A DNA stretch of 64,000 nt from assembly GCF_053078305.1 (NCBI RefSeq), contig NZ_CP166879.1. The stretch is one strand, 5' to 3'. The position numbers are program-made. Below, piece after piece: positions 46,701 to 49,700 of the stretch (position 1 is its first letter; the number at the start of each line of letters is the position of its first letter).

Positions 46701-49700
46701 CCCTGGCTGCGTGCGTTCAAGTTCCGGCCAAATATCGGCAGAAAGCACATAACGACCTACGGCCATGATGTCTGAGTCCAGCGTTTGTGGCTGATCCGGT
46801 TTTTCGATGAATTCAACAATGCGGCTGACTTTGCCTTCACGGTCCAGCGGTTCTTTGGTCTGAATGACGGAGTATTCAGAGAGGTCACCCGGCATACGCT
46901 TTGCCAGCACCTGGCTACGGCCCGTTTCATTGAAGCGCGCAATCATGGCAGCAAGGTTGTAGCGCAGCGGGTCGGCGCTGGCGTCGTCGATCACTACGTC
47001 TGGCAGTACCACGACAAATGGGTTGTCGCCAATGGCGGGTCGTGCACATAAAATGGAGTGGCCTAAACCTAAAGGTTCGCCCTGACGCACGTTCATAATG
47101 GTCACGCCAGGCGGACAGATAGACTGCACTTCCGCCAGCAGTTGACGCTTCACGCGCTGTTCAAGGAGAGATTCTAATTCATAAGAGGTGTCGAAGTGGT
47201 TTTCGACCGCGTTCTTGGACGCGTGAGTTACCAGGAGGATTTCTTTGATCCCTGCAGCCACAATCTCGTCAACAATGTACTGAATCATTGGCTTGTCGAC
47301 GATCGGTAGCATCTCTTTGGGAATCGCCTTAGTGGCAGGCAACATATGCATCCCAAGACCTGCTACCGGTATAACTGCTTTTAAATTCGTCATTCTTTTC
47401 CTACCTCTAAGTGGCTGATAGTGCGTAAATTATTGCCATAGGTTAGCCAAACGTTATGGCTATATACCAAAGCTTAGTTCCGCATAACTTTGCTTAAACC
47501 TTAGGATAACACTACACACCATCAGCATCTGGGTTACTCGGATTACTCGGAATTCCGCATACTGATAATTTAATCAGTACCTCTTTCCGAATAATCGTAG
47601 TCCAACCTGGTCCTTTTTTCTCTGACTTGTCTGCATTACTCAGAAACAAACGTTATGTCGTCTTTTTTGGCATGAACGAATTCATACTGCAGAGTTCGAT
47701 CCAGACCTTGCGACAGCGTATACGGTGCCACAAAACCTGAAGAATGCACTTTCGTTGCGTCAAACTGTGTTGTTGCGCAGAATTTTTTCACGCGCACTGA
47801 GCTGACAGCGTATTTTTTGCCCGTAATTTTGCTCAGGATATCAAAACAATATCCACCCAGCATTCCTAGTGGGTAAGGCAAGTGCATAGAAGGGATCTTT
47901 TTGTTCAGGCTTTGTTCAACTTCAGCAACCAACTGGTTCATGTTCAGGTCTGGCTTATCAACGTAGTTATAAACCTCATAACCTGCGGCAACATTCTTCA
48001 GTTTGTACTTGATAAACTCAACAATGTTTCCAACATAAGCCATGGACTTATAGTTAGTCCCTGCGCCCACCATCATAAACTTGCCGCCAGCGATCTGTTT
48101 CAGCAAGTTATAGACGTTACCGCGGTTGCGTTCACCGAAGATAACGGTAGGACGGATGATGGTTAATGAACGTTCTGTTGGTGCTTTGTTATACCATTCA
48201 CGCAGCACTTCCTCTGCCTGCCACTTACTTTTGCCGTAGTGGTTGAAAGGATCGTGTGGATGGTTTTCGTCAGGGTTGTGTTTGTTCAAACCATAAACAG
48301 CAACGGAACTGGTAAAGATGATATTTTTAACGCCATTTTTTTCCATGGCCGCCAGCACATTGCGGGTACCCTGAACGTTGACATCATAATAGAGAGAAGT
48401 AGGGCTGACGTCATCGCGGTGTTCCGCTGCCAGTAGTACAACAGTGTCAAAACCGGCTAACGCCTGGTCGAGTGCCTGTTGATCACGAACATCACCAATC
48501 TGTGTGATTTCTGGATAAAAGTGGCTCTGCTGTTTGTCCAGGTTCTTGATATTAAAGTCAGCAATTGCCGTTTCAAGTAGTCGGGTTCCTACGAATCCGG
48601 AAGCTCCTATGAGCAAAACGTTATCGTTCATAAATCACTTTAGTCTGGTTGTTACGTAAGAAACACAAGATAAAGATGAGTACCTTCCCTGAGTAGTCAA
48701 TGCTGCCCAGCCCCAGCTTTAACAGTTAGTGTGAGGATTATAATCTTTTAGAACATTATATCCAGTAAGTTTATGAATGGTCGCAAATCTACTCCCCCCG
48801 TTCCGGCAATCTAAAGTTAATCTTTTCCACATTAACAATATGGTGATTAATCCTGTCGATATCGACGGAGCTTTGTCCTTTCTCATTCACCGCATGAACA
48901 TTTGCAAGTGACAGCAGTGTTTCTTTTTTCGCCATAAAGACGCCGCGAACGTCTTTGCGCATGTCGAAGTTCATGCTCAATGCTGGTCCAACAGAGGATT
49001 CCTGCATCACATTGATATTGCGCATAAAAAGATGTTGCGGCTTGTTGTGTAACTCCAGCGAGGCACGCTTCATCTCAATGTTAGTCAGCGCCACAAAGGA
49101 GACGGCATTCCCAGCGGAGATTTGGATACCGCGCAATTTGTAAGCAAGATGGGTGTTATCCATTTGAATATTATTCACTCGGAAATTTTGCGGTATTGAG
49201 AGATATTTGCCTTTAATTACCCCATAGCCGATTAACATCCCGGCGCTATTAATCATTTCAATATTATCAATCACGAAATTGTCACAACCGTAAATAGCAA
49301 CTGTCGCGTTATCAATGCCTGCTTTCTTACTGAAATCCGGCGTGATATTGCGGGCTTTGATATTACGGATAACAAAATGTTTGCCATTTTCAACATGGAT
49401 CAACTGCCGACAATCCGATCCCGTGATATTCGCCACGACAAAGTTTTTCACTGCCTGGTCTTCCGGGTAATTATTATCGTAAGTGCTTCCTGCAAGGCCT
49501 ATGCCGATTCCCCAGTTGATTTTGCCGTTGGTACAGTTGATGCGCTCGATGACATGGTCAGATATCAAAATATCACTGTCGTTAATCGCCACGTTCCATT
49601 CGATGGCGTCGCCCTGTAAGTCGCTGAACTTACAGTTGGTGATGTTGGCACCGATAATCTGATTATGAAATCCCTGGCGTAAGATGGCGTAATTAGCGTG

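What the first reader, a model, noticed from the sequence alone, without database searches (positions are those of the whole stretch)
47636..48631. Extra SDR-family epimerase between galF and wcaM (gnu/gne-like), in addition to a GalE-family epimerase inside the cluster
K-12 has no gene between galF and wcaM as far as I recall, whereas strains whose O unit starts with GalNAc carry a 331-aa epimerase here (Z3206 in O157, proposed to make GalNAc-PP-undecaprenol or UDP-GalNAc). This strain has that gene plus a separate 338-aa GalE-family epimerase at 40820..41836, suggesting two distinct 4-epimerisation steps feed the O unit.
Basis: partly seen in the sequence, partly recalled or inferred. Interest (0 to 1): 0.4.

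Follow-up and report, generated by a model that had tools for sequence, protein, structure and literature searches.

The report
Known Gnu epimerase beside O11 cluster
The gene between galF and wcaM is the already-characterised E. coli Gnu epimerase, which turns the lipid-linked first sugar of the O antigen from GlcNAc into GalNAc, and its pairing with a second, GalE/Gne-type epimerase inside this O11 O-antigen cluster is a textbook arrangement rather than a discovery.

Summary
A 331-aa ORF lies at 47636..48631 (-) between wcaM and galF, and a 338-aa GalE-family ORF lies at 40820..41836 (-) inside the O-antigen cluster. K-12 has only a 174-bp gap at the first site.

The 331-aa protein is 100% identical to the O157:H7 protein that RefSeq names GlcNAc-PP-undecaprenol 4-epimerase (Gnu). 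It occurs in 1314 of 5426 complete E. coli genomes, always at this locus type.

The cluster is serogroup O11. All 65 complete genomes carrying the O11 cluster also carry gnu.

The in-cluster enzyme passes the curated GalE thresholds. It is 27% identical to Gnu and 51% identical to K-12 GalE. It has Cys299 where E. coli GalE has the bulky Tyr299, as in human GALE and the O6 gne. Its syntenic Salmonella O16 homologue (69% identical) is called gne.

The most likely pathway is: WecA makes UndPP-GlcNAc, Gnu converts it to UndPP-GalNAc (the first sugar), and Gne supplies UDP-GalNAc for an internal residue.

The same gnu + gne logic is published for O86, O125 and Y. pseudotuberculosis O6/O7 (Cunneen et al. 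2013). Activities were not tested here, and I could not retrieve the identity of the second HexNAc of O11.

Verdict: already known, low interest.

The parts
47636..48631 (-). gnu: 331-aa extended-SDR protein, N-acetyl-alpha-D-glucosaminyl-diphospho-undecaprenol 4-epimerase (identical to the O157:H7 protein WP_000999466.1)
   Evidence: ORF. 331/331 identity to the O157:H7 strain Wll001 CDS. RefSeq product name in 1314 genomes. Pfam Epimerase E = 8.5e-31 and 3Beta_HSD E = 3.1e-27. GxxGxxG at residues 9-15, YxxxK at 132-136, and no hydrophobic segment of transmembrane strength.
47411..48774 (.). 1364-bp presence/absence segment that carries gnu; K-12 has about 142 bp of unrelated sequence in its place
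   Evidence: blastn of the K-12 galF-wcaM region against the window: homology ends at window 47410 on the galF side and resumes at 48775 on the wcaM side. No flanking direct or inverted repeats of note.
48737..48764 (-). sigma-70-like promoter match (10 of 12) upstream of gnu; a possible own promoter, weak evidence
   Evidence: Consensus scan. No terminator-like site was found between wcaM, gnu and galF on the - strand.
46497..47393 (-). galF, the conserved flank of the O-antigen locus
   Evidence: TIGR01105 689.2 bits against a cutoff of 659.2.
48789..50183 (-). wcaM, the last gene of the colanic acid cluster
   Evidence: NF007517 1019.8 bits against a cutoff of 808.
46212..46219 (-). ops element GGCGGTAG in the galF-wzx gap (the JUMPstart region of the O-antigen operon); gnu and galF lie upstream of it
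   Evidence: Exact match. That it is the JUMPstart/ops element rests on general knowledge of these loci; its position is what the sequence shows.
40820..41836 (-). in-cluster GalE-family 4-epimerase (338 aa), predicted Gne type able to act on UDP-GlcNAc/UDP-GalNAc; RefSeq labels it galE
   Evidence: NCBIfam GalE 427.7 bits against a cutoff of 262.3. 51% identity to K-12 GalE, with Cys299 aligned to GalE Tyr299 and to human GALE Cys307. The O6 gne has Cys and the O128 epimerase has Ser at this column. 69% identity to the S. enterica O16 'gne' in a syntenic cluster.
33563..46127 (-). O11 O-antigen gene cluster: wzx 44892..46127, GT2 44158..44883, wzy 42926..44161, GT1 41857..42924, gne 40820..41836, GT4 39744..40751, gmd 38612..39733, fcl 37643..38608, gmm 37185..37640, manC 35788..37188, GT2 34958..35716, manB 33563..34933
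   Evidence: 99.8% identity over 11.6 kb to 65 genomes whose wzx and wzy are annotated 'O11 family'. Glycosyltransferase families from Pfam. Low G+C of 0.26-0.40.

Best explanation
The window holds the E. coli O11 O-antigen locus with its two known 4-epimerases.

Step 1 (established knowledge): WecA, encoded elsewhere, makes UndPP-GlcNAc.

Step 2: Gnu (47636..48631) is a soluble or peripheral NAD-dependent extended SDR. It epimerises C4 of the lipid-linked sugar through a transient 4-keto intermediate and gives UndPP-GalNAc, the first sugar of the O11 unit.

Step 3: the in-cluster GalE-family enzyme (40820..41836) has a small Cys at the gatekeeper position. It acts as Gne and interconverts UDP-GlcNAc and UDP-GalNAc (probably also UDP-Glc and UDP-Gal), supplying the donor for the second, internal N-acetylhexosamine.

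Step 4: two GT2 and two GT1/GT4 transferases add the remaining residues (two alpha-L-Fuc, alpha-Man and alpha-HexNAc). Wzx flips the unit and Wzy forms the beta-GalNAc linkage.

Shown here: gene identities, locus architecture, family separation, the gatekeeper residue, and co-occurrence of gnu with the O11 cluster. Inferred: substrate specificities, which residue each enzyme feeds, and the chemistry.
For: - The Gnu protein is 331/331 identical to the O157:H7 protein, the enzyme whose UndPP-GlcNAc epimerase activity and lack of UDP-GlcNAc activity are reported by Rush et al. 2010 as summarised in PMC3682973.
- It sits at the same locus, between wcaM and galF, as all enterobacterial clade D (gnu) genes.
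- It is present in 1314 of 5426 genomes and in all 65 genomes with the O11 cluster.
- The O11 unit has beta-D-GalNAc at the reducing end plus a second 2-acetamido sugar, L-Fuc and Man.
- SDR motifs GxxGxxG and YxxxK are present and there is no transmembrane segment.
- Its nearest non-epimerase families are lipid-substrate SDRs: HpnA, 3beta-HSD and NSDHL.
- The in-cluster enzyme passes the GalE cutoffs, is only 27% identical to Gnu, and scores higher against human bifunctional GALE than against E. coli GalE.
- Its gatekeeper is Cys299, against Tyr299 in K-12 GalE; it is Cys in the O6 gne and Ser in an O128 in-cluster epimerase.
- Active-site size decides whether UDP-GlcNAc is accepted.
- The syntenic S. 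enterica O16 homologue is named gne, is 69% identical, and has the same GDVAECW motif.
- The set of 2 GT2 + 2 GT1/GT4 fits four alpha linkages made by transferases and one beta linkage made by Wzy.
Against:
- The primary O11 structure paper (Li et al. 2011) and Rush et al. 2010 are not in the held library. The identity of the second HexNAc (GalNAc or GlcNAc) is therefore inferred, not read.
- Earlier work assigned UDP-GlcNAc epimerase activity to the galF-upstream gene: the title of Wang et al. 2002, and Guo et al. 2007 on 'overlapping substrate specificity'.
- RefSeq labels the in-cluster gene galE, not gne.
- The gatekeeper rule rests on a few characterised enzymes.
- Cunneen's survey found 10 cases in which gnu or gne was present without a predicted need.
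Confidence: 0.82

Rival explanations
1. [quoted passage not shown]
For: This was the original assignment of the gene: Wang et al. [quoted passage not shown] The protein has a generic NAD-dependent epimerase fold and weak GalE similarity (71.4 bits).
Against: According to the summary of Rush et al. [quoted passage not shown] In O86, knockouts of either gene altered the LPS phenotype, so both are needed and the two are not redundant. In E. coli and Y. pseudotuberculosis the gene tracks GalNAc as first sugar, not GalNAc in general. Its closest families are lipid-substrate SDRs.
Confidence: 0.07
2. [quoted passage not shown]
For: RefSeq names it 'UDP-glucose 4-epimerase GalE', and it passes the GalE equivalog model. 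Clade A mixes GalE and Gne, and sequence alone does not fully separate them.
Against: E. coli already has a housekeeping galE. The gatekeeper is Cys, not Tyr, as in the O6 gne. The glycosyltransferase set and the synthetic target suggest that the O11 unit has no Gal or Glc residue that would need UDP-Gal: 2 inverting + 2 retaining transferases for alpha-L-Fuc x2, alpha-Man and alpha-HexNAc. That the fifth residue is L-Fuc is my inference from the cited donor reference. The Salmonella O16 homologue is curated as gne. RefSeq also labels recognised gne genes (O6) as galE, so the label carries no information on this point.
Confidence: 0.13
3. gnu is merely linked to the locus and is surplus to O11 synthesis: the unit starts with GlcNAc, and the GalNAc comes from Gne alone.
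For: Cunneen et al. list 10 cases where gnu or gne is present when not predicted. gnu lies outside the RfaH/ops-controlled operon. If the second HexNAc were GlcNAc, only gnu or gne would be required, not both (group 2 logic).
Against: All 65 genomes with the O11 cluster retain an intact contiguous gnu. The synthetic target places beta-D-GalNAc at the reducing end of the unit. With two inverting GT2 enzymes accounting for two alpha-L-Fuc residues, the single beta linkage is left to Wzy, which makes that GalNAc the first sugar (inference).
Confidence: 0.06

Closest known systems
Gnu (Z3206 / 'Gne') of E. coli O157:H7, UndPP-GlcNAc 4-epimerase (Rush et al. 2010; clade D of Cunneen et al. 2013)
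   Same: Identical protein, 331/331 against an O157:H7 strain. Same locus between wcaM and galF. Same RefSeq product name.
   Different: Nothing in the protein. Only the adjacent O-antigen cluster differs (O11 rather than O157).
E. coli O86 gne1 (= gnu) + gne2 pair; also O125, O128, and Y. pseudotuberculosis O6/O7
   Same: One clade D epimerase upstream of galF plus one clade A (GalE/Gne) epimerase inside the cluster; the model is a first GalNAc made on the lipid and a later GalNAc from UDP-GalNAc. The O128 strain 300709 shows the same gnu allele plus in-cluster GalE-family genes.
   Different: In O86 and O128 the clade A gene is the first gene after galF, and the O128 strain has Ser at the gatekeeper position. 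In O11 it sits mid-cluster between two transferase genes and has Cys. It is 57% identical to the O128 one.
Salmonella enterica O16 O-antigen cluster (Li et al. 2011; gene table in PMC6712391 supplement)
   Same: Same gene order: galF-wzx-GT2-wzy-GT1-gne-GT4-gmd-fcl-gmm-manC-GT2-manB-gnd. The epimerase is named gne, is 69% identical, and has the same GDVAECW motif.
   Different: It is a diverged orthologous cluster in another species. I did not check whether Salmonella O16 strains carry gnu upstream of galF.
E. coli GalE (PDB 1NAH/1XEL family) and human GALE (1EK6)
   Same: Full-length GalE fold and catalytic motifs: 51% identity to K-12 GalE, and E = 3e-126 to human GALE.
   Different: Gatekeeper Cys299 as in human GALE Cys307, not Tyr299 as in E. 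coli GalE. The gene is located in an O-antigen cluster, not in the gal operon.
Lipid-substrate extended SDRs (HpnA hopanoid-associated epimerase family, 3beta-HSD/NSDHL)
   Same: These are the best non-specific family matches of Gnu: HpnA E = 2.8e-27, 3Beta_HSD E = 3.1e-27, NSDHL 6jkg E = 2.3e-17.
   Different: All are far below the curated cutoffs (95.5 bits against 367.65 for HpnA), so Gnu is not a member. No solved structure is closer than E = 2e-17.

Membership tests
Gnu (clade D UndPP-GlcNAc 4-epimerases, Cunneen et al. 2013) | Sequence falls with the characterised O157 enzyme | tested here: met
   331/331 identical to the O157:H7 strain Wll001 protein WP_000999466.1. The same protein accession occurs in an O128 strain, in line with the paper's statement that the O86 and O157 proteins are identical.
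Gnu (clade D UndPP-GlcNAc 4-epimerases, Cunneen et al. 2013) | Gene lies just upstream of galF, outside the O-antigen cluster proper (enterobacterial members) | tested here: met
   The order is wcaM, gnu, galF, ops, wzx. The same arrangement is seen in FORC 064, O157:H7 and O128 genomes. The gene is absent from K-12.
Gnu (clade D UndPP-GlcNAc 4-epimerases, Cunneen et al. 2013) | Associated O unit has GalNAc as the initiating sugar and the cluster has no initial transferase gene | tested here: inconclusive
   No initial transferase gene was seen among the cluster ORFs. The synthetic O11 unit has beta-D-GalNAc at its reducing end. The primary structure paper is not held, so the biological first sugar is inferred from transferase counting.
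Gnu (clade D UndPP-GlcNAc 4-epimerases, Cunneen et al. 2013) | Epimerises UndPP-GlcNAc and not UDP-GlcNAc | not testable with these tools
   Reported for the identical O157 protein (Rush et al. 2010, as summarised). Not measured here.
Extended SDR (NAD-dependent epimerase/dehydratase, PF01370) | N-terminal GxxGxxG Rossmann motif and catalytic YxxxK with an upstream Ser | tested here: met
   Gnu has GASGFVG at 9-15, YGKSK at 132-136 and SS at 108-109, with PF01370 E = 8.5e-31. The 338-aa enzyme has PF01370 E = 1e-54.
GalE/Gne (clade A UDP-hexose 4-epimerases) | Passes the curated GalE family threshold over its full length | tested here: met
   For the 338-aa protein, TIGR01179 scores 427.7 bits against a cutoff of 262.3, and NF007956 scores 448.9 against 394, covering residues 1-337. 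The 331-aa protein fails, with 71.4 bits.
Gne subtype (accepts UDP-GlcNAc/UDP-GalNAc) | Small residue at the gatekeeper position (E. coli GalE Tyr299 / human GALE Cys307) | tested here: met
   Cys299 aligns with Tyr299 of K-12 GalE and with Cys307 of human GALE. The O6 gne has Cys and the O128 epimerase has Ser. The active-site size rule is cited.
Gne subtype (accepts UDP-GlcNAc/UDP-GalNAc) | Measured activity on UDP-GlcNAc/UDP-GalNAc, and a non-initiating GalNAc in the O unit | not testable with these tools
   A second 2-acetamido sugar is present in the O11 unit, but whether it is galacto or gluco could not be read from the texts held. The S. enterica O16 orthologue is curated as gne.

The most novel reading that the evidence does not exclude
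gnu lies outside the region used for molecular O-typing, so it could be a hidden determinant of serotype. DebRoy et al. report that OX19 and O11 have identical O-antigen gene clusters yet do not cross-react. A strain with the O11 cluster but without gnu, or with an inactive gnu, would start its unit with GlcNAc instead of GalNAc and could type differently. In addition, the gnu segment is far more conserved between this strain and another O11 strain (99.3%) than the flanking galF and wcaM genes (about 95.5%). This suggests that it moves or sweeps as a separate module.
Probability: 0.1. Interest if true: 0.4.

Novelty: already known. Interest (0 to 1): 0.08.

Why it matters
The main practical value is for annotation. 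The galF-upstream gene should be called gnu (UndPP-GlcNAc 4-epimerase). The in-cluster gene, which RefSeq labels galE, is better read as gne. Together they predict an O unit that starts with GalNAc and contains a further GalNAc, as expected for O11.

Because gnu sits outside the wzx/wzy-typed cluster and can be lost (for example by the IS1 deletion in strain G6/7), its presence should be checked when an O-antigen structure is inferred from sequence, or when E. coli is engineered to build GalNAc-initiated glycans. None of this is new biology.

Tried and rejected
**Papers not in the held library**
- I tried to read Li et al. 2011 (O11/O16 structure), Rush et al. 2010, Wang et al. 2002 and Liu et al. 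2014. None is held, so the O11 structure is known here only through the synthesis paper, which does not name residues D and E in the text held.
- Table S2 of Cunneen et al. does not include O11.
- The supplements of the Liu et al. 2019 review are not held.

**Dead ends**
- The 'O16AUND' identifiers in the Salmonella pangenome supplement refer to the K-12 O16 model reaction, not to Salmonella O16.
- A search for repeats flanking the 1364-bp gnu segment, as a sign of a mobile element, found only short chance-level matches.
- No terminator-like site was found between wcaM, gnu and galF. One promoter-like match lies upstream of gnu and is weak evidence.
- The second ops-like octamer at 13538..13545 is at chance level: 26 of 100 shuffles give at least 2 matches.
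- No NCBIfam model passes its cutoff for Gnu, so family assignment rests on identity to the characterised protein.

**Deliberately not run**
- I did not run the large protein-database searches, structure prediction or fold search. The identification was already exact (100% identity), and the verdict would not change.

Full report
**1. Observation**

The 331-aa ORF lies between wcaM (48789..50183) and galF (46497..47393), and both flanking genes pass their curated NCBIfam cutoffs. It is a real gene. It matches Pfam PF01370 with E = 8.5e-31, and the same 996-bp CDS is annotated in RefSeq genomes. In K-12 MG1655, galF and wcaM are separated by 174 bp with no gene.

Aligning the K-12 region to the window shows homology ending at 47410 on the galF side and resuming at 48775 on the wcaM side. 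A 1364-bp segment carrying the gene therefore replaces about 142 bp of unrelated K-12 sequence. No repeats of note flank it.

**2. What the 331-aa gene is**

The protein is 331/331 identical to the CDS at the same position in an O157:H7 genome, WP_000999466.1. RefSeq names it N-acetyl-alpha-D-glucosaminyl-diphospho-ditrans,octacis-undecaprenol 4-epimerase. The segment is found in 1314 of 5426 complete E. coli genomes, nearly always at 95% identity or more. Its 90% cluster has 2299 members, with the same name in E. coli, Shigella and Citrobacter.

According to Cunneen et al. 2013 (PMC3682973), Rush et al. 2010 showed that the O157 enzyme has no activity on UDP-GlcNAc and converts UndPP-GlcNAc to UndPP-GalNAc. 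Cunneen et al. named this clade gnu. They showed that in E. coli its presence tracks GalNAc as first sugar, with 104 of 115 serogroups fitting expectation. The 2019 review of E. coli O antigens repeats this.

The protein has the extended-SDR motifs: GASGFVG at residues 9-15 and YGKSK at 132-136, preceded by Ser108-Ser109. It has no hydrophobic segment of transmembrane strength. Apart from the generic epimerase family, its best matches are SDRs that act on lipids: HpnA, 3beta-HSD and NSDHL. All of these are far below the curated cutoffs, and no solved structure is close (best E = 2e-17).

**3. What the cluster is**

The region 34900..46500 is 99.8% identical to 65 complete genomes whose wzx and wzy are annotated 'O11 family'. 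The gene order on the minus strand is:
- galF, then an ops element at 46212..46219
- wzx, GT2, wzy, GT1
- the 338-aa epimerase, GT4
- gmd, fcl, gmm, manC
- GT2, manB, gnd

A query spanning O11 wzx, galF and gnu is covered at 80% or more in exactly 65 genomes. Coverage at that level requires both wzx and gnu, so every complete genome with the O11 cluster also has gnu.

**4. What the 338-aa gene is**

It passes both curated GalE models over its full length (427.7 bits against a cutoff of 262.3, and 448.9 against 394). It is only 27% identical to Gnu, so the two are not in one orthologous group. It is 51% identical to K-12 GalE and scores higher against human GALE (424 bits) than against E. coli GalE (386 bits).

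At the position that limits the active-site size it has Cys299. This aligns with Tyr299 of E. coli GalE and with Cys307 of human GALE. The in-cluster epimerase of O6 (CFT073), which the review treats as gne, also has Cys there. An O128 in-cluster epimerase has Ser, and K-12 GalE has Tyr. Cunneen et al. recount that active-site size decides whether UDP-GlcNAc is accepted. From my own knowledge, the GalE entries 1LRK/1LRL are the Y299C variant that gains activity on the N-acetylated substrates; they score slightly higher than wild type against this protein.

The Salmonella enterica O16 cluster was reported as closely related to O11 (reference). It has the same gene order and lists the corresponding gene as gne. 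That protein is 69% identical to the window protein and keeps the GDVAECW motif. RefSeq's 'galE' label does not settle the matter, because it is also applied to the O6 gne.

**5. How it most likely works**

WecA forms UndPP-GlcNAc (established knowledge). Gnu epimerises it to UndPP-GalNAc. Gne provides UDP-GalNAc for an internal residue.

The O11 unit is described in a synthesis paper that follows Li et al. 2011. It is a pentasaccharide with four alpha linkages and one beta linkage. It consists of beta-D-GalNAc at the reducing end, alpha-L-Fuc, alpha-D-Man, an alpha-linked 2-acetamido sugar and a fifth alpha-linked residue.

The cluster encodes two GT2 (inverting) and two GT1/GT4 (retaining) transferases. 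This fits two alpha-L-Fuc residues from GDP-beta-L-Fuc (inverting), alpha-Man and alpha-HexNAc (retaining), and the single beta linkage made by Wzy. That assignment makes the beta-GalNAc the first sugar.

That the fifth residue is L-Fuc is my inference, from the donor reference cited for it and from this counting. If it is correct, the unit has no Gal or Glc. The extra epimerase is then not needed for UDP-Gal, which points to UDP-GalNAc. I could not read the identity of the second HexNAc, and this is the main gap.

**6. Comparison with what is known**

This is the published gnu + gne arrangement, described for O86 (gne1/gne2), Y. pseudotuberculosis O6/O7 and O125. I also saw it directly in an O128 genome, which has the identical Gnu protein plus two GalE-family genes in its cluster.

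**7. Rivals**

- The older view that the galF-upstream enzyme is a UDP-GlcNAc epimerase (titles) is contradicted by the biochemical and genetic evidence summarised.
- The view that the in-cluster enzyme is only a GalE is weakened by the housekeeping galE, the Cys gatekeeper, and the curated gne name of its orthologue.
- The view that gnu is surplus here is weakened by its retention in all 65 O11-cluster genomes and by the reducing-end GalNAc.

**8. Verdict**

The finding is already known and of low interest. Its residual value is for annotation (gnu and gne rather than 'SDR' and 'galE'). It is also a reminder that gnu lies outside the typed O-antigen cluster and can be lost, as in strain G6/7, where an IS1-associated deletion removed it.

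Noticed in passing
window 33601..34933 and 55934..57265: The O-antigen manB is 97% identical over 1.33 kb to the colanic-acid cpsG in the same orientation about 22 kb away. The duplicated gmd-fcl genes of the two clusters are only 69% identical. manB also has a G+C of about 0.52 against 0.26-0.40 for the rest of the O11 cluster. This looks like gene conversion or replacement of manB by the cpsG copy, and it forms a long direct repeat that could mediate deletion of everything between, including gnu.
   Followed up: partly
window 31993..51414: There is a mosaic identity pattern against another O11 genome (FORC 064) with no indels. 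The O11-specific genes are 99.7-100% identical. gnd, galF, wcaM and wcaL are 95.4-95.8%, manB is 98.3%, and gnu with its two intergenic flanks is 98.4-100%. The O11 core and, separately, the gnu segment are much less diverged than the genes between and beside them, as expected if they were exchanged by recombination.
   Followed up: partly
L009 (NZ_CP060061.1, strain G6/7) 3501..5389: This genome keeps the 238 bp downstream of gnu next to galF, but has an IS1A element in place of gnu, and its wcaM is a truncated pseudogene. It is an IS-associated deletion of gnu in an O169/O183-type strain.
   Followed up: partly
L005 6791..7798 (CFT073, O6); L006 7001..8020 and L010 2271..3290 (strain 300709, O128): RefSeq labels every in-cluster clade A epimerase 'galE: UDP-glucose 4-epimerase GalE', including the O6 gene that the literature treats as gne. 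The O128 strain has gnu plus two GalE-family genes, one at each end of its cluster.
   Followed up: partly
literature (PMC4732683), relevant to window 33563..48631: DebRoy et al. report that OX19 and O11 have identical O-antigen gene clusters but show no serological cross-reaction. The cause is unknown. Genes outside the typed cluster, such as gnu, are candidates. No genome with the O11 cluster but without gnu was seen among the 65 complete genomes.
   Followed up: partly
window 13538..13545: There is a second exact match to the ops octamer GGCGGTAG on the minus strand, far from any polysaccharide operon. By collinearity with FORC 064 it falls near the end of dacD. It is at chance level: 26 of 100 shuffles give at least 2 matches.
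   Followed up: partly
window 35788..37188 and 34958..35716: The mechanical ORF calls start at GTG and TTG and are a few codons longer than the RefSeq CDSs for manC (1386 bp) and the GT2 gene (747 bp) in the matching genome. The true starts are probably the downstream ATGs.
   Followed up: no
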